DNA from: Rhodoferax sp.
Lineage (GTDB): Bacteria > Pseudomonadota > Gammaproteobacteria > Burkholderiales > Burkholderiaceae_C
Assembly: GCA_044339205.1 (NCBI GenBank)
Contig: JBIIVW010000001.1
Span: 1-62,151, forward strand
DNA length: 62,151 bases
Direction of reading: 5' to 3'
This document shows, one piece after another, positions 10,929 to 20,477 of this stretch. Positions within the stretch are counted from its first letter, which is position 1; each line of letters starts with the position of its first letter. A program made the position numbers and the translations under genes. The notes under the pieces were generated by a model. That model was not told where the DNA came from, ran no database searches, and was given only the letters and a program-made list of their open reading frames with translations.

Positions 10929-11693
10929 GTGACCATGAAGCCCCTCTTGCGCTGGCTCGGCTTGCTGGTGGTGGCCGTGCTGGCATTGCAGCTGTTTTTT
11001 GTAGCGCGCATTGCCGCCATGACCGTGATCAACCCGCAGTCCACTGCCTTTCAGCGCTCGGAAGCCTGGCGGGTACTTGTCGACAAAGGCCGCTTGCCCT
11101 GGCGTCAACAGTGGATTCCCTATGCGCAAATCTCGGACAACCTGAAACGCGCGGTGATTGCCAGTGAAGACGATGGCTTCAGCAACCACGACGGCGTGGA
11201 CTGGGACGCCCTGGAAAAAGCCTGGCAAAAAAACGCCAAGGCCGAAGCCCAGGCAGCCAAAAGCCAAGCGGCCAAAAAACCGGTCACCTCGACCCAGAAC
11301 GCAGCGCCCACCATCCGACCGCCCAAAGTGGTGGGCGGCTCCACCATCACCCAGCAGCTGGCCAAGAACCTGTTTCTGTCTGGCGAAAGAACGCTCCTGC
11401 GCAAGGGCCAGGAGTTTGTGCTGACCCTGCTGTTGGAGGCCCTGCTCAGCAAAGAGCGGATTCTGGAGATCTACCTCAACAGCGTGGAATGGGGTGAAGG
11501 TGTGTTTGGCGCTGAGGCGGCGGCGCAACATTACTTTAAAAAGCCCGCCGCCAAGCTCAGCACCTATGAGGCCGCCCGCCTGGCCGTGATGCTGCCGCGC
11601 CCCAAGTATTTTGAGAAACTGCCTAACTCCAGCTACATCGCCGGCCGCGCCAACATGATTGCCAACCGACTGAACAGCGCTGCCTTGCCTTGA
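10929..11693 (+). CDS. mtgA: Monofunctional peptidoglycan transglycosylase
   Basis: ASEDDGFSNHDG, GGSTITQQLAKNL, RKGQE and KERILEIYLN motifs. The start is 10929 or 10935. Confidence 0.93.
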   Translation: MTMKPLLRWLGLLVVAVLALQLFFVARIAAMTVINPQSTAFQRSEAWRVLVDKGRLPWRQQWIPYAQISDNLKRAVIASEDDGFSNHDGVDWDALEKAWQKNAKAEAQAAKSQAAKKPVTSTQNAAPTIRPPKVVGGSTITQQLAKNLFLSGERTLLRKGQEFVLTLLLEALLSKERILEIYLNSVEWGEGVFGAEAAAQHYFKKPAAKLSTYEAARLAVMLPRPKYFEKLPNSSYIAGRANMIANRLNSAALP

Positions 11694-11787
11694 GGGCGGC
11701 GCTTGAACCCTGGTTTCCGTGGCGGGTCGCTTGGGAGCAAAAACTCCCCCGCTGAGGTCTCGTCCGAGCGGGAACTGGGGCAGGCCG

Positions 11788-11851
11788 CGCTGTTAAGCTG
11801 GATTGTCTAGCCGTCAGCCCCCTATTGATTCGCGCGACAAATTACAGGGTT
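11788..11851 (-). repeat. Degenerate 64-bp motif copy, intergenic at the left edge of the accessory operon
   Basis: aaccctgtaatttgtcgc-N18-gacggctagacaat. Confidence 0.5.
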
Positions 11852-11881
11852 TTTGGGAAGGGGGTTTGTATGAAGCCATGT

Positions 11882-14668
11882 TCAGCAGGGCGAATTTTTG
11901 AATTTGTTTCCTATTAGTACACACCCTTGCTCCACTAGCCGCAATGTACCCAAAGCCCCCAAATCAATGATCAGGCCCAAGCCCAAATTGGTCGTAGACC
12001 CCGTCGAAACGCTGGTGTTTGCCGCACCCCAGGATTGACTCATCACGTTGCCAATGTAGGTTCTTGCATAGATCGTTTCGCTGGTGCTCAGACCAATGGC
12101 CATGGTGTTGACAGCACCCATGCTGACGCTGATGTCAATATCCCCGCTATGGGGTTCCGTCACAGAGCCAATCACCGTGGTGGCTTCGGTGTTAACACCC
12201 ACCGTGCCCGTCAAGACTTCCGCAGTTTTCACATTGATTTTGACGTTGCCTTGCACGGGTGCGTCCACCACGCCAATCAGGGTGGTGGCTTTTGTATGCG
12301 CACCCAGGGCAAAGGTCACCAGTTCGCCTGTGACAACCGACATGTTCAGGTTGCCACTCACCACCCCCTGGCTACCCAGCACTGCCGAGCGGCTGGTAGC
12401 CGTCGTGTCATAACCGATACTCACAGCAATGGTATTGCCAGCGCTTTGATTGACGTTTGCAGCGCCTCCCACGCGGCCTTGAAGCACTCCCGCCTCGATC
12501 ACGCTGGTACTGTTGTCGCCAATGGCAGCAGCCACCGCACCAAGAGTCAGGTTGGCAGTCATGCTCAATGGTCCGGTGACGCTTGCATTTGCGGCAAGCA
12601 CACCGGCGCGCACCGTCGCTGCTGAGCTGTTGCCCAGCGCGGCGGCAATGGGCGACAGGGCCGAAATGTTCGAATAATTGACTGTTTGGCCAACCTTACC
12701 GTCGAGGTTGCCGATTTCGATCAAGGTGTGCGTGTCATTACCGACCGCCGCACCCACCATGCCTGTAACGTTGTTGACCATGGTCACACCGCCACCGGCG
12801 CTGCCGCCCAGAGATGCCAGGCGTTGGCTGGCGCTACTTGCGTTGCCAATGGCCACATTGACGGCACCGTTGATGGTGTTGGTGAGTTTGATGTTGCCGC
12901 CAAAGGCCTGGTTTTTATCCAGCGTACCCACAGAGCTCAGCGTTTGTGAGGCTCGCGAATTTGCACCAATGGCACCATTGAGTGCGCCACTGAGCACCAC
13001 CCGGTCATCAAGGTCGAGAAGAGTTTTGATGCCGGCTCCACCCCCTACGCTGGCCAACTGCTGTTGTGCATTGGCCTTCAAGCCAATGGCGACATTGGCG
13101 ACACCCAACGCAACAACTTGATTGCTGACGCGCTCCAGGCTGAGCCTTGTCTCAAGTGGTGCGCCAGCTGTTTGTTGCAGCAAATTGAACACTTTGGTGG
13201 TTTTTGTCCGGGCCTCGTCCCCTGCGCCGGGATCAGCCGAGGTGTCAACGCCGGCCTGAATCGTGGTGGAGAGGTCAGGCACATTCATTTTGTCTTTGGC
13301 TGCAGCAACTGCGGCTGTCAGCTCGGACAACAATTGGGCTTTTTGCACATCTGTCTGTGCCGATGCGGCTCTGAACTGTTTCTCCTGCTTGTCGGCTGTG
13401 TCGATTTTGGCCTGGATTTTTTCGTTCTCCGCGTCCCATTTCACTCGATTTCGAATGGAGTCAGGTGTTTCTGCCTCAACCTTTTTATGTAAATCATGCC
13501 AAGAACAGTGGGCAACGCAATAATCGTCATAGGCCGGATGCTGTCCATCATGTATTGATTTTTCGGCCTTGGCCAGTTTGAGAGCTTGGGCGTTTTGATC
13601 AGCTTTTTTAATCAGCTCAACTTTCACGCGATCAAGCCCACCGCCAACCGCGCTGGCCACCTTCTGGTTGATGCCATCGAGCGCATCTTTGACCTTGCCA
13701 AGCGCACCATCAATGGTCTGGCTGACCCCAGCCAAGCCCTGCTTGACCCGGTCATCAACTTGCGCGTTGGGGTCAGTGATCTTTTTCATGCGGTCATTGA
13801 TTGTTTTGTCAATATCAGTGCTGAAGTTTTTGGTGGCTGTGCTGATCTCCCTCAGAGGCACATCAGCTACCCCCGGCAGGTCAACACCCCGGGTGACGAT
13901 GGACTTCGTCAGCGCCACAATGTTGTTCATGGCATCGTCGAGCCGGGTGTCAATGTTGCCCAAAATCATGTCCATTTGCACTTGGCGGGGGTCCTCCGTT
14001 AGCGGTGCGTTGACATCTGGCATGGCCGGCAACGCGTTGAGCGCTGTGTTGATGCGCGTATTGATGTCACGCATTTGGGGGTTGATGTCTTGGGTGTCGG
14101 GTTGATCAGGCAGGCCGGGTGGGCGAACTGTTACGTCGTTGATCCGAGCATTCACGTCTTTGACAACGTCCAAAACATGCAGGCCAGGTATTTTGACTTC
14201 GGGCAGTTGGGTGGCCACGTTTGAGGTGTCGGGCACCTTGATATCAGGCCTCGCCAAACCGGGCACAGCAACGTCTGGCATATCCATGTCAGGTACAACA
14301 ATGCCCTGCAGCCTCAAGGCAAGGGCTGGCTGGCCGTTGGATGTCTGTGGAGCAGGGTTGAGCCACTGATTGATGGAGGGCGAGTTGCTTGCAGAGCCCG
14401 CCGGGGAGGCCATGCGAGTCTGCCATTGAGAGGCAGTGGCGGCGCTCGTGGCGTCCCCGCCGTCGGCGTCAGCCATGTTTTGCCACCGGTTGAGTTGGTC
14501 TTTTTTGCCGGGGTCGTCGATGACGGTGCGCACTGCGGTCTCCAGCGGTTGCCGGCCCAGAAGTTCTTCAGCCACGTCAGCCTGAGCGGGCGGCAGCTGG
14601 CCTGCGCTTAGCAAGGCAAAGGCCAGCGAAGAGCTGGCCGCGCGAGAAAATTGCCTGTATTTATGCAT
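11882..14668 (-). CDS. Large secreted protein (928 aa): Pro/Asp-rich linker, helical/coiled-coil middle, C-terminal beta-repeat domain
   Basis: Signal peptide ending PAQA-D; about 11 repeats of the type G-x-x-N-x-A-I-G-x-x-S-x-A-x-x-x-(L/I)-(G/A)-x-V. No family recognised. Confidence 0.75.
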   Translation of the reverse strand: MHKYRQFSRAASSSLAFALLSAGQLPPAQADVAEELLGRQPLETAVRTVIDDPGKKDQLNRWQNMADADGGDATSAATASQWQTRMASPAGSASNSPSINQWLNPAPQTSNGQPALALRLQGIVVPDMDMPDVAVPGLARPDIKVPDTSNVATQLPEVKIPGLHVLDVVKDVNARINDVTVRPPGLPDQPDTQDINPQMRDINTRINTALNALPAMPDVNAPLTEDPRQVQMDMILGNIDTRLDDAMNNIVALTKSIVTRGVDLPGVADVPLREISTATKNFSTDIDKTINDRMKKITDPNAQVDDRVKQGLAGVSQTIDGALGKVKDALDGINQKVASAVGGGLDRVKVELIKKADQNAQALKLAKAEKSIHDGQHPAYDDYCVAHCSWHDLHKKVEAETPDSIRNRVKWDAENEKIQAKIDTADKQEKQFRAASAQTDVQKAQLLSELTAAVAAAKDKMNVPDLSTTIQAGVDTSADPGAGDEARTKTTKVFNLLQQTAGAPLETRLSLERVSNQVVALGVANVAIGLKANAQQQLASVGGGAGIKTLLDLDDRVVLSGALNGAIGANSRASQTLSSVGTLDKNQAFGGNIKLTNTINGAVNVAIGNASSASQRLASLGGSAGGGVTMVNNVTGMVGAAVGNDTHTLIEIGNLDGKVGQTVNYSNISALSPIAAALGNSSAATVRAGVLAANASVTGPLSMTANLTLGAVAAAIGDNSTSVIEAGVLQGRVGGAANVNQSAGNTIAVSIGYDTTATSRSAVLGSQGVVSGNLNMSVVTGELVTFALGAHTKATTLIGVVDAPVQGNVKINVKTAEVLTGTVGVNTEATTVIGSVTEPHSGDIDISVSMGAVNTMAIGLSTSETIYARTYIGNVMSQSWGAANTSVSTGSTTNLGLGLIIDLGALGTLRLVEQGCVLIGNKFKNSPC

Positions 14669-14692
14669 CAGAAGCCGCCAATGGCGGTCACA

Positions 14693-15877
14693 TCACTTGG
14701 CTTGCCCAGCCCCTGCAGGCTCGTTCGCCTTGGGCTTGGCAGGCACTCCGTCAGGTACTAATTGAAGGGCGGGGGAATTGTTGGGGCTTGAAGTCGCCAC
14801 GGCCAGCATCACCGGGGCCAACAGTTTCTCGTAAAGCGCCCAGTCGATATCAGGCCCGCCCAGCAGATCGTGCTTGGTGCGGTATTGCATGATGGCCGAG
14901 CGCATGGCCCTGGAATGCTTGCCTTGCGCATCGGTGGGCGCTGCAGTTTTGCCCAACATGCCGAGTTCGCGCAGACGCAGTGCCACACTGTCTAGCCGCT
15001 GCTCAGCCGACAAGCTGTCAAAGGCTTCACGCGCCAATTTGACGCTGGGGTCGTCGTTGCCCAGTTCGGCCAGACATTCCCAGTAAGGAAGGTCGTAGAG
15101 TTTTCCAAACAACTCAATGGCACCCACTTCCACCAGGCTTCGCATACTTTGGCTGATGGCCTGGGCACGGTTCTCACCCAAGTTCATGTTCACACCCAAT
15201 TTGGCAAGGCCCAGCGTGTACTCAGTGGAGTTGGAACGTTTTTCAACGGCCATGGTATTGGCTGAAAACACACCCGGCAAGAGTTGGTAGTTGTTGACCA
15301 GGCCCACGGCCATGTCCAGGGAAATGCTCGACAAACTAAGCGAATTTGAGCTTGAAGCGCCTGCGCCCAAGATTTGATCAGTGATACGCGCCGCGTTGGC
15401 AGAGTAGCCGGCCTGCTTGCTGTAAGGGTCGCTATTGATTTGGGTGACCGCACCGCGAATAAAAAAATCAGGAATGCGCAGCGTCGACTTTCGGGGGTGG
15501 CTATTTTGCAGTGCGACAATATCGGGGGTAGAGCGGTCAAAGGCCACATAACGAATGCCCGCGCTTTGTTTGGACATCTCGGAAATGGCTGAAATGAGCA
15601 TGTCCCGCGTGCCGTAGCCCGCCGTGCCGCGTGCCTCGGAGTAGTCAGGCAGCGTGGCTGCGGTGACATAAATGGGCTGCACCTTGTTGACCAGCATCAT
15701 CTGGTCAAAGCACGCGAGGCCTGGCGTGAAGGAGGTCACAGTGCGCACGGGGTAACGCGTGGACAGCTTGGTGGCTACATCGTTTGGCGGCTCAACCCTG
15801 TGGTGGGTGGCGCAGCCGCTGATGATGGCCAGGGACAACATGGCCCCACTGGTTTGAATGAACCGCTTGATAATCAT
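14693..15877 (-). CDS. CsgG/HfaB-like outer-membrane lipoprotein with probable C-terminal peptidoglycan-binding domain
   Basis: Lipobox ISGC; LACFD, RDMLISA, PDFFIRGAVTQ, ISLDM and SMRSLVEVGAIELFG resemble CsgG/HfaB; the segment SRAMRSAIMQYR..L..G is PG_binding_1-like. Start moved to ATG 15877. Confidence 0.65.
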   Translation of the reverse strand: MIIKRFIQTSGAMLSLAIISGCATHHRVEPPNDVATKLSTRYPVRTVTSFTPGLACFDQMMLVNKVQPIYVTAATLPDYSEARGTAGYGTRDMLISAISEMSKQSAGIRYVAFDRSTPDIVALQNSHPRKSTLRIPDFFIRGAVTQINSDPYSKQAGYSANAARITDQILGAGASSSNSLSLSSISLDMAVGLVNNYQLLPGVFSANTMAVEKRSNSTEYTLGLAKLGVNMNLGENRAQAISQSMRSLVEVGAIELFGKLYDLPYWECLAELGNDDPSVKLAREAFDSLSAEQRLDSVALRLRELGMLGKTAAPTDAQGKHSRAMRSAIMQYRTKHDLLGGPDIDWALYEKLLAPVMLAVATSSPNNSPALQLVPDGVPAKPKANEPAGAGQAK

Positions 15878-15903
15878 GTTTGGCAATGCTTGGGTAAAGA
15901 GGA

Positions 15904-16236
15904 CTACTGGCAACGATTGCCCACATTGATGATGTCGCCCACGATCACCACTTGAATATTGGTGCTAATGGCGGTTGAGGTGGTTTGCACGTTGCCCACC
16001 GACACCGAGCCGCAGTCCACTCGCGACACCTGCTGGGCCAGCTCTTCGGGCGTTTTGCCAAGAAGTCCTGACCGGATTTTTTGGTCGAAGTAATCCTGGT
16101 TGTACAGCAGTGTTTGGGATTTGACGCTGAGAATGCGCCGGTTGGCACTGTCAGGAATCAGACCGGCGCTGTGGGCGGCCTGGGTGAACAGTGTGGTGAG
16201 CAAAGCACCCGCCAGCGCCTGTTTGAAGGTATTCAT
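15904..16236 (-). CDS. Small secreted protein (110 aa) with a C-terminal Cys-bracketed beta segment
   Basis: ATG 16236, signal peptide ending AHS-A; C-terminus DCGSVSVGNVQ...IQVVIVGDIINVGNRCQ. Confidence 0.7.
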   Translation of the reverse strand: MNTFKQALAGALLTTLFTQAAHSAGLIPDSANRRILSVKSQTLLYNQDYFDQKIRSGLLGKTPEELAQQVSRVDCGSVSVGNVQTTSTAISTNIQVVIVGDIINVGNRCQ

Positions 16237-16252
16237 CTCGCAGGCCGATGTC

Positions 16253-16591
16253 TTATTTGTTTCGCTCACAGGCTGTTTTGTGCCCGATTGTGCCAATGGA
16301 TTGGTCGGCGCAGGTGCCTTGACCGGTGGCAGCGTTCATGGCACCGTCAGCGACTATTTTTTCGTTAGTCAACTCCGAGATCTTGCCCGATTCAACGGAG
16401 CCAATGTTTTGCGTCGTGCTGGAGTCCAATCCAGTAGCAGCATTCATCACTCCGGTCGCCAAAATGTCTATGTTGTCCATTTTTCCGATAGTTGGGCCGT
16501 CTTGTGCTGCCTGGGCATAGGCCGCAGTGCTCATGCTCAACGGTACTGCGCAGATTACGGCCAAGGCCAGGGTGTTGATCAAACGTTTCAT
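16253..16591 (-). CDS. Small secreted repeat protein (112 aa), candidate fibre subunit
   Basis: AAGGAG RBS, signal peptide ending AYA-Q, two repeats GVMNAATGLDSSTTQNIGSV and GAMNAATGQGTCADQSIGTI. Confidence 0.75.
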   Translation of the reverse strand: MKRLINTLALAVICAVPLSMSTAAYAQAAQDGPTIGKMDNIDILATGVMNAATGLDSSTTQNIGSVESGKISELTNEKIVADGAMNAATGQGTCADQSIGTIGHKTACERNK

Positions 16592-16612
16592 GAATTACTC
16601 CTTGTTAAAAAC

Positions 16613-16933
16613 TTAAAAAAGCAGATCGCTGATGCCATCTGCCGGTACCTCAAACAAAATGAACTGGTTGGATTCCCGGTTCATCACCTCAAGCTCCAGC
16701 TCGTTGCCCAGCTTGCGGATGTAAATAATCACCACATTCATGACTTCTCCGGTGTCGAGCCAGGCCACTTTGAGCTCTTGCCCCGCTGCAATACCACCCG
16801 GATGAAGCGCTTCCAAAATAGTGATGGCTCGCCCGGTGTGCACCTCAGAGCCATCCTGGGCATGAGCGCCTGAGCACAGAAAACCAAGACCCACCACAAG
16901 TGAAAGCGCAAATTTTTGGAAGATGGTGTTCAC
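16613..16933 (-). CDS. Small secreted hypothetical protein (106 aa)
   Basis: GTG 16933 with an AAGGAG RBS at 16943-16948; signal peptide ending AHA-Q. Confidence 0.7.
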   Translation of the reverse strand: MNTIFQKFALSLVVGLGFLCSGAHAQDGSEVHTGRAITILEALHPGGIAAGQELKVAWLDTGEVMNVVIIYIRKLGNELELEVMNRESNQFILFEVPADGISDLLF

Positions 16934-17032
16934 CTTTTTAAACTCCTTAAAGGGTGCTGATGAAATAATTGGGGTTGGGTGCATCTTCGGACTTCAGTGT
17001 TGCCAATGTTCAGACTTGCGTGCCGCCTTGTC

Positions 17033-17052
17033 TGTCCCCAGTTTTGGTGACA
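17033..17052. promoter_or_regulatory. Inverted repeat, probable binding site of the adjacent response regulator
   Basis: TGTCCCCA-GTTT-TGGTGACA (7/8 symmetric) in the divergent intergenic region. Confidence 0.5.
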
Positions 17053-17204
17053 CACCCTGACCGGGCCTGCACCCATAATCAAACCCATTTACGCGGTTCG
17101 CTGCAGGTGGTTTACTCGTGCTTCAATTGACCCAGCCCCAAGGCGCACCCGCCCAAGACCTGAACCCGGCGCAAGGCCCTTCGCGCCGGAAGCCAGACGC
17201 CGCC

Positions 17205-17864
17205 ATGATTCATGTGGCCATCGTTGAAGACGATGTTGACCTGCAAAACGCCATCGTCAGCGCCATTGAGGCGTCTTCCGACCTTTGCGTGACACACGCT
17301 GCCGGCACCCGGGCGGCAGGATTGAGGCTGCTGGAGCGGCCGCCCGCCGATGTGCTCCTGGTGGATTTGGGCTTGCCTGACGGCTCAGGCATCGATGTGA
17401 TTAGGGCGGCCTACACCTTGTGGCCCACCTGCGCGGTGATGGTTTGCACCACGTTTGCCGATGAGGCGCATGTGCTGCAATCGATTGAGGCGGGTGCCTC
17501 AGGCTACTTGCTGAAAGACGGCACTGCCGGTGACATGCTGGCCGAAATGCGCAGCCTGCACGGCGGCGGTAGCCCCATCAGCCCGCTGATTGCGCGCCAG
17601 ATACTGACGCGCTTTCGGAACGCCCCTGTGCCTGCGCCACAGCAGGTGAGCGCACCTGACAGCAGCGAACACGCGAGCTTGTCAGTCCGTGAAAAAGAGG
17701 TGCTGGAGCTCATCACCAAAGGCTTCACTGCTGATGAAATTGCCAAGCTGATCACGGTGTCGCAGCACACCATTCGCACCTATGTGCGCCGCATTTATGT
17801 CAAATTGAAAGTCACCTCCAAGACCGAAGCCATTTATGAGGCCAGAAGCCAAGGCTTGCTGTAG
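17205..17864 (+). CDS. NarL/LuxR-family response regulator
   Basis: IVEDD, LVDLGLPDGSG and GYLLK receiver motifs; LSVREKEVL..G HTH. Start at ATG 17205. Confidence 0.93.
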   Translation: MIHVAIVEDDVDLQNAIVSAIEASSDLCVTHAAGTRAAGLRLLERPPADVLLVDLGLPDGSGIDVIRAAYTLWPTCAVMVCTTFADEAHVLQSIEAGASGYLLKDGTAGDMLAEMRSLHGGGSPISPLIARQILTRFRNAPVPAPQQVSAPDSSEHASLSVREKEVLELITKGFTADEIAKLITVSQHTIRTYVRRIYVKLKVTSKTEAIYEARSQGLL

Positions 17865-19816
17865 TGGAAGCACAAGCGTCCGTGTGGTTTCGGTACCGTA
17901 TGCGCCTTTTCTGGCTTTTGTGGGGTGTCGCACTGCTTGCGATCTCGGGCTGCCAGAGGGCCACCAACGGTGACAAGGCTATCCACCTGACAAGCGCGCA
18001 GATTTATTCGGTGGTGGGCCACGAGTTCACACAGCCGCCAAGAAACCGGGGCGTTGTAATGCTGCCCCAAAGTGACTGGCAGACAGCAGGCTTGCCGCAC
18101 GTTGCCCCGCGTGAATTGCTGGCGCAGCCCCAAGATGAAGGGCACACCGTGACCGACTGGTATCGGCTTGACACGGCTGCGCTGCAGGGCACCACGCGGG
18201 CACGTTATTTGTATGTGCCACGTTGGAAAACCATTGGACAAATCGCAGTGTATGCAGATGACAGGCTTATCTACAGCTCTGAGGGCAGCATGACCCACAA
18301 CGGCTATAACCATCCGCTGCTGCTGCGGCTCAACGCCGGGCAGGGCGAGCGAGCACCAGCCACCGTGCTGCTGCGCATAGACCGGCTGCGCAGCAGCGGA
18401 AGCGCTTTATCTACCCTGTGGGTGGGTGCAGCACAGCCGCTGGTGTGGCGTTACCAGGTGCGGCAATTTCTTCAAACGCAGTTGCCTTTTATTGGCGGTG
18501 CGGCCTTTTTGGCGGTGGGATTTTTCTCACTGGCAGTTTGGCTCAGGCGGCGCAACGATTCGCTTTACCTGCTTTTTTTTGCCACCTCTGCGATGGCTTT
18601 TGTGCGGATGCTGCATTACCACATTGGCGGCAGCACCCTGCCTTTTGACGACGAGTGGTTTGAGTGGGTCACCGTGGCATCACTGATGTGGCTGCTGGTG
18701 TTGTCGCATGTTTTCCTGGAGCGTTTGCATGGCCAAGGTGTGCGCTGGCTGACCCCTGCTCTCTTTGTTCTCACGGCCTCGTTCAATTTGGTCACCCTGC
18801 CGGGGCTGGCGCTGCTGCTGCCCCGTCTGACTTTAATCACGCCGCTGCTTTATATGTTGTTGCTGCCGTTTGCCACGCTGATTTTTCTTGAAGCACTGCG
18901 CAACAGCATGCGCATTCGTTCGCGCGAGGTGTGGCTGATGTCAGGGTGGCTTTTTGCCACCACACTGGGCTGCACCTATGACCTGCTGTTGCAAAACAAC
19001 TGGGTAAGTCCCGAGGGGATGTACACCAACCCTTACGCCATTATTGGGCTGTTTGTTATGTTCACCTACATCATGTTCAGGCGCTATGTAGGGGCCAAAG
19101 CGGAGATTGAGCAGGCCAACGCTCACCTGGCCCAGCGCCTGGAAAGCCGCGAATTGGAGCTAGGCCTGAGTTACGCGCGACTGCGCGAAGTCGAACACCT
19201 GCAAACCTTGAGCGACGAGCGCCTTCGCCTCACACAAGACATGCATGACGGCTTGGGGGCGTCGCTGGTCAGCGCGCTGCGCGTGGTGCAGACCGGACGC
19301 ATGAGCGACATCGAACTGGGCGAGATTCTGAAAAGTTGTATTGATGACCTCAAGCTCACCATCGACTCCATGGAACCGGTTGATGACGACTTGCTGCTGC
19401 TACTTGCAACCCTGCGTTTTCGGTTGGGTCCGAGGCTGGCCAGCGCAGGCATCTCTCTGCACTGGGAGGTGGTGGACTTGCCTGCACTCCCCTGGCTGGA
19501 CCCACGCAACGCCTTGCATATTTTGCGGATTCTGCAAGAGTCCTTTGCCAACATCCTCAAGCACACCAAAGCTCAGGAAATCCGCGTGGCCACCCGTGTG
19601 GAAAGCAGTGGTGTCACCGTGACGATCACCGACAACGGCCAGGGTTTCTCGCTGGAGGCCGGCCTGCTCGCTGGTGGCAAAGGCCTGCACAACCAGCAGC
19701 GCCGGGCACAAACGGTCGGTGGCTCGGTGCAATGGCAATCAGACGCCAGCGGAACCCGCATGACGCTGTGGCTGCCAAGAAATAGACAAGATTCACCCGC
19801 AACCCAAGGCCATTGA
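17864..19816 (+). CDS. Sensor histidine kinase (periplasmic domain, multi-TM 7TM-DISM-like region, HisKA_3)
   Basis: QDMHDGLG H-box, ESFANILKH N-box, DNGQG and GKGL boxes; several TM helices. Confidence 0.9.
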   Translation: MEAQASVWFRYRMRLFWLLWGVALLAISGCQRATNGDKAIHLTSAQIYSVVGHEFTQPPRNRGVVMLPQSDWQTAGLPHVAPRELLAQPQDEGHTVTDWYRLDTAALQGTTRARYLYVPRWKTIGQIAVYADDRLIYSSEGSMTHNGYNHPLLLRLNAGQGERAPATVLLRIDRLRSSGSALSTLWVGAAQPLVWRYQVRQFLQTQLPFIGGAAFLAVGFFSLAVWLRRRNDSLYLLFFATSAMAFVRMLHYHIGGSTLPFDDEWFEWVTVASLMWLLVLSHVFLERLHGQGVRWLTPALFVLTASFNLVTLPGLALLLPRLTLITPLLYMLLLPFATLIFLEALRNSMRIRSREVWLMSGWLFATTLGCTYDLLLQNNWVSPEGMYTNPYAIIGLFVMFTYIMFRRYVGAKAEIEQANAHLAQRLESRELELGLSYARLREVEHLQTLSDERLRLTQDMHDGLGASLVSALRVVQTGRMSDIELGEILKSCIDDLKLTIDSMEPVDDDLLLLLATLRFRLGPRLASAGISLHWEVVDLPALPWLDPRNALHILRILQESFANILKHTKAQEIRVATRVESSGVTVTITDNGQGFSLEAGLLAGGKGLHNQQRRAQTVGGSVQWQSDASGTRMTLWLPRNRQDSPATQGH

Positions 19817-19865
19817 AGTTGGCGGCGACCCAAACAACGTGGTGTCGCTCTGTATCATCCCCGTC

Positions 19866-20477
19866 ATGCTTGCCACGCTGATGAGTTACTTTTTGCTGGG
19901 TCTGATCCGGGTCCTGACCGGGTCACAGGCACGCTGGTACGGTTGCCCGCCCAAGGCCGAGCAGCGCATCTACTTCGCCAACCACCAGAGCCACGCCGAC
20001 CTGGTCATGATCTGGGCCGCCCTGCCCAAGGAGTTGCGCGCACGCACCCGCGCCATTGCCGCGCGGGACTACTGGACCAAGACCCCCTTCAAGCAATGGC
20101 TGACCACGGCCGTGTTCAACGTCATTTATGTCTCGCGCGAGCGCACCGCCGAGGAGGACCCGCTGGAGCCCCTGATTGAGGCCTTGAACCACGGCGACTC
20201 GATCATCCTGTTTCCCGAGGGAACCCGGGGCAACGCAGAGGAACCGCAAGCCTTCAAGGCCGGGTTGTACAACCTGGCACTCAAATTCCCCCAGATCGAG
20301 CTGATTCCCGCCTGGATCAACAATGTGCAGCGCGTGATGCCCAAGGGCGAGGTGGTGCCCGTGCCGGTGCTGTGCTCGGTGACCTTTGGCACGCCCATGC
20401 GCCTGATGCCCGGTGAAGAACGTCGCGCCTTTCTGGATCGGGCGAGGAGCGCCGTCATCGCTCTGCGCGATGTCTGA
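19866..20477 (+). CDS. Lysophospholipid acyltransferase (PlsC family)
   Basis: NHQSHAD (HX4D) and FPEGTR motifs. Confidence 0.92.
   Translation: MLATLMSYFLLGLIRVLTGSQARWYGCPPKAEQRIYFANHQSHADLVMIWAALPKELRARTRAIAARDYWTKTPFKQWLTTAVFNVIYVSRERTAEEDPLEPLIEALNHGDSIILFPEGTRGNAEEPQAFKAGLYNLALKFPQIELIPAWINNVQRVMPKGEVVPVPVLCSVTFGTPMRLMPGEERRAFLDRARSAVIALRDV

What the first reader, a model, noticed from the sequence alone, without database searches (positions are those of the whole stretch)
11882..19816. Candidate undescribed curli-like (CsgG-channel) fibre/adhesin secretion system with its own two-component regulator
Seen: five tightly spaced co-directional genes, all with signal peptides (106 aa, 112 aa repeat protein, 110 aa, 394 aa lipoprotein, 928 aa repeat protein). 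They are transcribed divergently from a NarL-type regulator and a multi-TM sensor kinase, sit between the housekeeping genes mtgA and the acyltransferase, and have visibly less GC-biased codons. Established: CsgG/HfaB lipoproteins export curli subunits and Caulobacter holdfast anchor proteins. The lipoprotein resembles this family by motif, but no curlin repeats (N-x-A-x-x-x-Q-x-G), csgE/F or hfaA/D homologues are recognisable. Inference: a distinct type-VIII-like pathway exporting beta-solenoid subunits, with the 112-aa protein as major subunit, the 110-aa protein as a CsgF-like adaptor or nucleator, and the 928-aa protein as cargo or tip adhesin.
Basis: partly seen in the sequence, partly recalled or inferred. 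Interest (0 to 1): 0.85.

Follow-up and report, generated by a model that had tools for sequence, protein, structure and literature searches.

The report
Curli-type pore exporting new repeat fibre
A conserved, apparently undescribed five-gene cluster pairs a predicted curli/holdfast-type outer-membrane channel with secreted proteins built from a new 36-residue repeat, so it likely makes a new kind of bacterial surface fibre, here probably switched on by a borrowed two-component regulator; no fibre has been seen.

Summary
The five signal-peptide genes (A 106, B 112, C 110, D 394, E 928 aa) form a cassette conserved across Proteobacteria. D's model has the CsgG fold (Foldseek E 3e-11; Z 14.3), is closer to HfaB than to CsgG by profile, and ends in a peptidoglycan-binding-like domain. 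B is two copies of a strict 36-residue repeat that is neither curlin nor Hfa. The C-terminal half of E is a predicted beta-solenoid of the same repeat. C sits directly before D, and its Cys-flanked tail weakly resembles a permuted repeat. A is DUF5334-like. Best reading: D exports B (shaft) and E (tip or minor subunit), with C as anchor/nucleator. Polymerisation, secretion and amyloid character are untested, and E's model fits ordinary beta-helices better than curlin. The two-component pair is not part of the conserved system. It is a separate module that often faces surface-protein genes, and it brings a conserved palindrome lying between it and gene A, so local control is plausible. The block is an 8.1-kb insertion between mtgA and plsC. 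Ten literature searches found no description; this scan noted the same family before on other genomes.

The parts
16613..16933 (-). Gene A: secreted small beta protein, DUF5334-like; likely periplasmic accessory or chaperone (role inferred)
   Evidence: PF17268 hit by 5 of 11 family members, best E 1.2e-6, own E 0.16; present in 16 of 23 loci with enough flank, upstream of B or downstream of E
16253..16591 (-). Gene B: signal peptide + two 36-aa repeats + C-terminal Cys pair (C94/C108); predicted major subunit
   Evidence: 36-aa spacing in 12 of 13 two-repeat members, 38 in one; 170 proteins at E<=0.001 among 1.84 billion representatives; AAGGAG ribosome-binding site; no Pfam, NCBIfam or PDB sequence hit
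15904..16236 (-). Gene C: signal peptide, conserved N-terminal helix-like motif, Cys-flanked beta-tail resembling a circularly permuted repeat; predicted anchor/nucleator (CsgF/HfaA-like in position only)
   Evidence: 16 of 16 C hits in other family genomes lie 65-275 bp upstream of a D match; tail scores 6.3 bits on the repeat-junction HMM against 2.2 for shuffles, 0 of 200 and 0 of 300 reaching it; no Pfam hit
14693..15877 (-). Gene D: lipoprotein with CsgG/HfaB fold (residues ~46-264, window 15086-15742) and two amphipathic beta-hairpins; predicted outer-membrane secretion channel
   Evidence: AF2 mean pLDDT 82; Foldseek CsgG E 3.1e-11; VIA Z 14.3, rmsd 3.2 A, 179 aligned; alternating hydrophobic/Ser-Gly columns; weak HfaB HMM hits
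14807..15025 (-). C-terminal peptidoglycan-binding-like domain of D (residues ~285-357)
   Evidence: Structural match to the SleB N-terminal domain Z 7.1, rmsd 2.6 A, 67 aligned, and to other PG-binding domains; PF01471 in relatives
11882..14668 (-). Gene E: 928-aa secreted protein with a variable low-confidence N-half, a conserved helical hairpin with a Cys/His-rich tip (residues ~340-461), and a C-terminal repeat solenoid; predicted tip or minor subunit
   Evidence: present in 26 of 30 loci with >=3.6 kb downstream
11885..13147 (-). Beta-solenoid of E (residues 508-928), about 11 copies of the B repeat, ending in a hydrophobic hairpin and a Cys pair (C916/C928) like B's end
   Evidence: AF2 block pLDDT 54-93; hhalign B vs E 97%; B profile hits E at 5.8e-10 with 7 stretches
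17033..17052 (.). Palindrome TGTCCCCA-N4-TGGTGACA between gene A and the regulator; candidate operator of the LuxR-type regulator
   Evidence: Found at <=2 mismatches upstream of the regulator in 10 of 11 homologous loci; the only site at <=1 mismatch in the 3.86-Mb genome, with 7 sites at <=2
17205..17864 (+). NarL/LuxR-type response regulator; not part of the conserved cassette
17864..19816 (+). Membrane sensor histidine kinase (HisKA_3-like + HATPase_c); not part of the conserved cassette
11703..19845 (.). Approximate extent of the insertion between mtgA and the acyltransferase gene
   Evidence: The acyltransferase follows mtgA directly in 12 of 13 relatives; one contig in run X9 joins 11702 to 19846

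Best explanation
This is a conserved five-gene cassette that likely works as a curli-analogous (type VIII-like) secretion-assembly system, in which lipoprotein D, with its predicted CsgG/HfaB fold, would form a peptidoglycan-tethered outer-membrane ring and export unfolded repeat proteins that would stack into a surface fibre. B (two 36-residue repeats, with start and end in register) would be the shaft subunit, adding head to tail by beta-solenoid extension. C would dock on the channel through its N-terminal helix and present one permuted, disulfide-stapled repeat as anchor and template. E would join through its C-terminal solenoid and display its helical, Cys/His-tipped N-half as tip adhesin or minor subunit. 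A is probably a periplasmic helper. Shown: gene conservation and order, the shared repeat, the lipobox. Predicted: the folds of D and E. Inferred: oligomer, export, polymerisation and the roles of A, C and E. In this genome the cassette probably came under the control of a neighbouring two-component module through the palindrome at 17033-17052 (about 55% on its own).
For: The top ten Foldseek rows for D are all CsgG (E 3e-11 to 2e-8), and CsgG leads the wide search at Z 14.3 against 10.7 for the next chain. The two hairpins alternate hydrophobic with Ser/Gly columns. In 45 related loci with >=900 bp upstream of D, C is found in 45 and B in 44; E is found in 26 of 30 with >=3.6 kb downstream (many metagenome loci are near-duplicates). 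Named hosts span Rhodocyclaceae, Halieaceae, Alteromonadaceae, Terasakiella, Rickettsiales and Desulfuromonadales. In 300 family genomes, 16 of 16 C hits and 20 of 21 B hits with E<1e-4 lie just upstream of a D match. B-family proteins carry 2 to 8 copies of an exact 36-residue unit with little else after the signal peptide, which is the length-variable, uncapped design of curlins (PMC10192328, passages). E's repeat half is predicted as a beta-solenoid. No csgA, csgE, csgF or csgG family match was found elsewhere in this 89.6%-complete genome. Other conserved neighbours are confined to subgroups, and no enzyme or polysaccharide gene travels with the cassette.
Against: No fibre, export or expression data exist. 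E's model superposes poorly on curlin (8c50 Z 17.3 but rmsd 8.9 A) and better on non-polymerising beta-helices (HMW1 secretion domain Z 16.7, rmsd 3.5 A; EtpA Z 16.4), and the repeat lacks the Asn/Gln ladders of curlin and FapC. B itself was not folded. A 900-residue protein with two or more likely disulfides, and a disulfide in B, would be awkward cargo for a diffusion channel (recalled knowledge of CsgG). The CsgG fold is shared with rings that export no protein subunits (PelC, FlgT, PqiC rows), and CsgG-family clusters without curli are known (10.1101/2021.05.19.444899, passages). Only 28 of 55 family genomes with a D match had a B or C hit upstream. Reading 17 chosen loci showed other small adaptors and other repeat proteins in most, but unrelated upstream genes in at least 3 (L046, L124, L127, output partly cut). 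The C-repeat resemblance is weak (hhalign 15% and 2%). A single-repeat HMM failed to hit the window's own E at E<=10, although it hit the 88%-identical P0091.
Confidence: 0.65

Rival explanations
1. Holdfast-anchor-like complex: D exports B, C and E, but they form a short surface patch or coat that tethers a polysaccharide or other adhesin, as HfaA/HfaD do, rather than a long fibre.
For: D is nearer HfaB than CsgG. hhalign gives 97% over 242 columns with two HfaB sequences including signal peptides, 58% (E 1e-4, 210 columns) on mature domains with a larger HfaB set, and 13% for the CsgG core. Weak HfaB HMM hits occur in 11 of 13 D-like proteins. D shares HfaB's Cys pair. The order C-D-E parallels hfaA-hfaB-hfaD. 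hfa genes need not sit beside the synthesis genes (PMC6707917, passages).
Against: B, C and E show no profile similarity to HfaA or HfaD (all <=1.5%). HfaB scores are at most 29 bits against a cut-off of 300. No polysaccharide gene is conserved near the cassette. There is an extra small pure-repeat subunit, B, with a strong ribosome-binding site.
Confidence: 0.17
2. Single-cargo secretion: D exports E as a monomeric beta-helical adhesin or effector (in the manner of two-partner secretion, or MafA/MafB), with B, C and A acting as caps or chaperones of the solenoid.
For: E's model matches TPS secretion-domain beta-helices at rmsd about 3.5 A. E has a conserved helical hairpin with a Cys/His tip. 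MafA, a lipoprotein likened to CsgG by its authors, secretes the toxin MafB (PMC7738311, passages).
Against: Many relatives have B, C and D but no E (L031-L034, and the DUF4384 types), so E is dispensable while B is not. E's conserved part is C-terminal and its variable part N-terminal, unlike polymorphic toxins (recalled). Foldseek gives no significant match to any toxin fold.
Confidence: 0.1
3. Periplasmic or envelope scaffold: D forms a PelC/FlgT-like ring bound to peptidoglycan, and the repeat proteins assemble on it inside the periplasm; nothing is exported.
For: D carries a PG-binding-like domain absent from CsgG. PelC, FlgT and PqiC share the core fold. OmpA-domain genes follow D in L031-L034.
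Against: D has both long amphipathic hairpins (model strands 152-193 and 199-238) and aligns with CsgG over 179 residues against about 120 for PelC.
Confidence: 0.08

Closest known systems
Curli / type VIII secretion (CsgG channel, CsgA/CsgB subunits, CsgE, CsgF, CsgC)
   Same: CsgG-fold lipoprotein; Sec-exported repeat subunits of variable repeat number predicted to form beta-solenoids; a small gene directly before the channel, like csgF.
   Different: 36-residue repeat without the N/Q kernel, against about 23 residues (PMC10192328); no CsgA, CsgE or CsgF family match; D is below the Pfam CsgG threshold, has 12-14% identity to CsgG and adds a PG-binding-like domain; Cys pairs in B, C and E; a 928-aa repeat-bearing protein in the operon.
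Caulobacterales holdfast anchor HfaA/HfaB/HfaD(/HfaE)
   Same: D's nearest profile relative is HfaB, with a shared Cys pair; small gene - channel - long repeat gene order.
   Different: No profile similarity of B, C or E to HfaA or HfaD; far below the HfaB cut-off; no holdfast link known; found in beta-, gamma-, alpha- and deltaproteobacterial genomes.
Pseudomonas Fap amyloid (FapC/B/E, FapF barrel, FapD peptidase)
   Same: Longer imperfect repeats, one per cross-beta layer (PMC12392863, passages); small major subunit with C-terminal Cys (recalled for FapC).
   Different: The channel is CsgG-type, not FapF; no peptidase in this cassette; the recalled Fap motif is absent; no N/Q-rich core.
Orphan CsgG/HfaB three-gene cluster of Acinetobacter/Neisseria (10.1101/2021.05.19.444899)
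   Same: A CsgG-family lipoprotein acting without curli subunits, with effects on the biofilm matrix.
   Different: Its partners are two lipoproteins (GNA1162-like), not repeat subunits.

Membership tests
Curli / type VIII secretion | Outer-membrane lipoprotein with the CsgG fold | tested here: met
   Lipobox C22; predicted model matches CsgG at Foldseek E 3e-11 and Z 14.3
Curli / type VIII secretion | Channel passes the Pfam CsgG (PF03783) cut-off | tested here: not met
   No hit for D; 2 of 61 family members hit weakly, best E 0.014
Curli / type VIII secretion | Subunits with curlin repeats (about 23 aa, QX10Q or NX5QxG kernel) | tested here: not met
   36-aa period; the PMC10192328 regexes match 4, 2 and 3 of 24 sequences; B's only match, to the degenerate pattern, falls by my reading at the signal-peptide cleavage site; PF07012 not found in the genome
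Curli / type VIII secretion | CsgE and CsgF homologues | tested here: not met
   PF10627 and PF10614 not found in the 89.6%-complete genome; no hit in the A or C families
Curli / type VIII secretion | Nonameric transmembrane pore that secretes the subunits | not testable with these tools
   Hairpins are amphipathic; oligomer and transport need experiment
Curli / type VIII secretion | Extracellular SDS-resistant cross-beta fibres | not testable with these tools
   Needs ThT/Congo red, EM and fibre diffraction
Curli / type VIII secretion | Two-sheet curlin solenoid architecture of the subunit | tested here: inconclusive
   E model: CsgA 8c50 Z 17.3 at rmsd 8.9 A, tied with beta-helices at rmsd about 3.5 A; B not folded
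Holdfast anchor (Hfa) | HfaB equivalog (NF037935, cut-off 300 bits) | tested here: not met
   16 bits for D, at most 29 for relatives; remote homology supported
Holdfast anchor (Hfa) | HfaA and HfaD homologues flanking the channel | tested here: not met
   hhalign probability <=1.5% for every B, C, E and A pair tested
Holdfast anchor (Hfa) | Anchors a polar polysaccharide | not testable with these tools
   No conserved polysaccharide genes nearby, which does not exclude it
Fap amyloid | FapF beta-barrel and FapD C39 peptidase in the operon | tested here: not met
   No such Pfam hit among the five genes; the channel has the CsgG fold
Fap amyloid | Greek-key solenoid fold of the subunit | tested here: inconclusive
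   FapC is not among the top 50 rows for the E model; B not folded

The most novel reading that the evidence does not exclude
A third family of Gram-negative self-assembling beta-solenoid fibres, beside curli and Fap: a non-N/Q, 36-residue-repeat polymer exported by a peptidoglycan-tethered HfaB-branch pore. It is nucleated by a single permuted repeat on the adaptor C and, in this five-gene form, capped by a 900-residue tip adhesin, which would make it a pilus-like amyloid with a dedicated tip. Its channel family occurs in about 5% of sampled genomes of the phylum.
Probability: 0.45. Interest if true: 0.87.

Novelty: new variant of a known kind. Interest (0 to 1): 0.72.

Why it matters
Curated curli models were long known to leave many CsgG paralogues unexplained (PMC3521004, passages). 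This cassette supplies a concrete substrate family for one widespread branch. D-like genes occur in 55 of 300 genomes of the host family and 20 of 400 of the phylum, including many environmental, floc- and biofilm-associated lineages whose matrix proteins are unknown. The prediction is cheap to test, because B is an 86-residue mature protein. A new CsgG-like pore and a programmable 36-residue solenoid would also interest nanopore and biomaterial work. The palindrome and its regulator offer a practical way to switch the genes on, and define a mobile 'surface-protein switch' module in this genus.

Tried and rejected
Complex prediction of two D chains (22-270) with C (24-110) gave no answer (score 0.00); it is no evidence either way. 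Sequence searches of solved structures with D, the D profile and the B profile found nothing significant. Foldseek of the E model gave no match at E<=0.001; FapC and HfaA-type folds were not listed for it. ESM Atlas: B gave only sub-0.9 leads, and C gave unnamed clusters at 0.93. The promoter/terminator scan was at chance level. No RNA holder was listed among sequencing runs; DNA holders are lake and river metagenomes. One search included four wrong-frame translations and cut off the probabilities, so it was redone. In one search the 'acin' set wrongly included L154, which looks HfaB/CsgG-like, so I do not rely on its 81%. The idea that B, C and E descend from HfaA/HfaD, prompted by a shared AIGN-like motif, was rejected. 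The idea that the regulator pair belongs to the conserved system was rejected. The 250-bit threshold mixes in distant DUF4384-type loci and drops 4 of 57 (L036, L037, L091, L092). For the palindrome, 2 of 13 kinase loci (L110, L119) were left out because the regulator's upstream region was off the contig. The pattern came from the window before testing; the widened pattern was made after seeing hits, and I do not count on it. No tree was built, since identities of 12-20% would not support one.
Full report
Observation. I call the genes A (106 aa), B (112), C (110), D (394) and E (928). None of the five has a Pfam or NCBIfam match above cut-off; the only informative hint is HfaB for D at E 0.005. 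There are no paralogues in the genome, and no CsgG, curlin, CsgF or CsgE family match in this 89.6%-complete assembly.

The lipoprotein D. A 61-sequence alignment gave a model with mean pLDDT 82. The ten best Foldseek rows are CsgG (E 3.1e-11 at the top, 12-14% identity). The wide search puts CsgG first (Z 14.3, rmsd 3.2 A, 179 aligned), ahead of PelC (10.7), and matches residues 285-357 to peptidoglycan-binding domains (SleB, Z 7.1). Both long hairpins alternate hydrophobic with Ser/Gly columns, the lipobox Cys is invariant, and residue +2 is Ser, Ala or Gly rather than Asp, which fits outer-membrane sorting by the recalled E. coli rule. By profile, D is nearer HfaB than curli CsgG: 97% over 242 columns with two HfaB sequences, 58% (E 1e-4) on mature domains with a larger set, and 13% for seven CsgG-core sequences. 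Weak HfaB hits occur in 11 of 13 D-like proteins, at most 29 bits against a cut-off of 300.

Conservation. Scans of genome and metagenome contigs returned 22 and 35 loci. Of these, 53 scored above 250 bits on the D profile. Among the 45 with at least 900 bp upstream, C is present in 45 and B in 44. Among the 30 with at least 3.6 kb downstream, E is present in 26, and among the 23 with both flanks A is present in 16. Many metagenome loci are near-duplicates, but the named hosts cover four proteobacterial classes. A more distant form (about 30% identity, often fused to DUF4384) occurs in 55 of 300 family genomes, 10 of 120 genus genomes and 20 of 400 phylum genomes (one of these matches only the C-terminal domain). 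In the family sample, 16 of 16 C hits and 20 of 21 B hits with E<1e-4 lie just upstream of a D match, while only 4 of 23 weaker B hits do; 28 of 55 D genomes had either. Reading 17 chosen loci by eye showed divergent small adaptors and other secreted repeat proteins in most, and unrelated genes in at least three (partly cut). So B-C-D is the core, and A and E define the subtype found here. None of the 120 genus genomes searched had a D match close to this subtype (best E 3e-58 against 4e-163 for the window).

The repeat. B consists of a signal peptide and two copies of a 36-residue unit, roughly IxGxVxIxVxA...NAAxG...AxQxIGxI, and relatives have up to eight copies at the same spacing. The B profile finds 170 proteins at E<=0.001 among 1.84 billion representatives, including E itself (5.8e-10, 7 stretches). 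B and E profiles align at 97%. A C-terminal Cys pair occurs in 62 of 88 short members. The unit is not curlin by the published regexes (PMC10192328, passages) and has no profile similarity to HfaA or HfaD. The E model has a low-confidence N-half, a helical hairpin whose tip is rich in Cys and His across homologues, and a beta-solenoid from 508 to 928. Its fold matches are generic: curlin 8c50 at Z 17.3 but rmsd 8.9 A, and the HMW1 and EtpA secretion domains at Z 16-17 and rmsd about 3.5 A. A solenoid is therefore predicted, but amyloid is not shown. C's tail scores above shuffles on an HMM of the junction between two repeats (6.3 bits against 2.2; 0 of 200 and 0 of 300 controls; reversed 3.1), although profile-profile support is weak (15%). 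A is DUF5334-like.

The regulator. No homologue of the regulator or kinase was found at E<=1e-5 in the 57 cassette loci (many are short), and 13 loci with a homologous kinase carry no cassette gene. In four of those 13 the divergent gene is a recognisable surface protein: two cadherin/Ig-repeat proteins, one ESPR type V protein and one IPTL-CTERM protein. In five more it is a small ORF, four of them with a signal-peptide-like start by my reading. A palindrome at 17033-17052 recurs upstream of the regulator in 10 of 11 testable loci and is unique in the genome at one mismatch or fewer. It also occurs in two genomes that have no divergent gene (L108, L109), so it may be autoregulatory only. The acyltransferase follows mtgA directly in 12 of 13 relatives, and a river metagenome contig shows the empty site. 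In G350 and G329 the same regulator pair sits before the acyltransferase with about 19 kb of other genes in place of the cassette. The regulator thus looks like a resident of this insertion site, with the cassette placed facing it.

Mechanism. Most likely D forms a ring in the outer membrane, tied to peptidoglycan. B and E arrive through Sec and thread through it unfolded. C anchors at the pore and templates stacking, B extends the solenoid, and E joins through its repeat domain and displays its N-half (0.65). The rivals are a holdfast-like anchor patch (0.17), single-cargo export of E (0.10) and a periplasmic scaffold (0.08). Gene content and the repeat are shown, the folds are predicted, and export, polymerisation and subunit roles are inferred.

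Comparison and novelty. It works like curli, but it fails the curli, Hfa and Fap membership tests on subunits and accessory genes. Ten searches of the held library found no description. DUF4384 occurs in 7 papers, none of which appears from its listing to concern CsgG, and DUF5334 occurs in none. Most subscription papers are not in the library. I saw passages only of PMC12822426, PMC10192328, PMC12392863, PMC3521004, PMC6707917, PMC7738311, PMC13397529, 10.1101/2021.05.19.444899 and 10.1101/2022.07.20.500906. I opened no supplements; the NanoporeDB tables may list D-family pores without context. Earlier notes of this scan describe the same or a similar family on other genomes. My reading was recorded before I saw them, and they are not independent support. 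What this locus adds is the five-gene form with a giant repeat-bearing protein, the permuted-repeat hypothesis for C, the HfaB affinity of the pore, and a candidate operator.

Noticed in passing
window 17033-17052; L108:6738, L109:6369, L111:7072, L112:7836, L113:1660, L114:8093, L115:4150, L116:7209, L118:3914, L120:6357: A LuxR/HisKA_3 two-component module of this genus carries a conserved TGTCCCCA-N4-TGGGGACA palindrome and often faces genes for surface or secreted proteins (cadherin/Ig, ESPR, IPTL-CTERM). It looks like a portable switch for surface proteins; I did not search the literature for the motif.
   Followed up: partly
window 11693-19866; G350:C2:739000-762000; G329:C20:1100-24000: The mtgA-acyltransferase junction is an insertion site: empty in most relatives, 8.1 kb here, and about 19 kb of signalling and transport genes plus the same regulator pair in two other genomes.
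   Followed up: partly
L031-L034: DUF4384-type D loci with two long repeat subunits (4-8 repeats), caspase-domain proteins, an ECF-type sigma factor and a downstream OmpA-domain gene; L032 and L033 also have an anti-sigma-like zinc-finger gene, and L032 a subtilase.
   Followed up: partly
L048-L054: A second D subtype (about 400 aa) preceded by a 1050-1290-aa secreted Gly/Asn/Ala-rich repeat protein and a different small adaptor, and followed by a Sel1-like protein (read by eye): another cargo family for the same pore.
   Followed up: no
L058:4726-6408, L086:3739-5421, P0021: D extended to 560 aa; L058 and P0021 carry a C-terminal Cds6_C NTF2-like domain (PF24125), and L086 was not scanned.
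   Followed up: no
L037:1750-6810: Two D-like genes convergent on each other; one is preceded by C and two 8-repeat subunits (Curvivirga MAG).
   Followed up: no
L085:5498-7909: The D gene is split by about 1.1 kb of inserted DNA in a metagenome contig.
   Followed up: no
L020:8104-8826, L029:5931-6584 and 9 more loci; L028:7079-7897 and 5 more loci: Subgroup-specific upstream genes: an unannotated 210-240-aa family in 11 loci, and a PpiC-type rotamase in 6 loci; they may be local neighbours or accessory chaperones.
   Followed up: no
L125:2395-6301, L126:2271-6155: Distant D loci in this genus lie next to a divergent LuxR-type regulator and a 7TMR-DISM GGDEF/EAL protein, a second case of local regulators beside the module.
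   Followed up: no
window 13481-13520 (E residues 384-396): The Cys/His-rich tip of E's helical hairpin varies from 2 to 9 Cys among homologues; possible metal binding or cross-linking site.
   Followed up: no
G000 C41:993: A two-mismatch copy of the palindrome elsewhere in the genome; a possible second target of the regulator.
   Followed up: no
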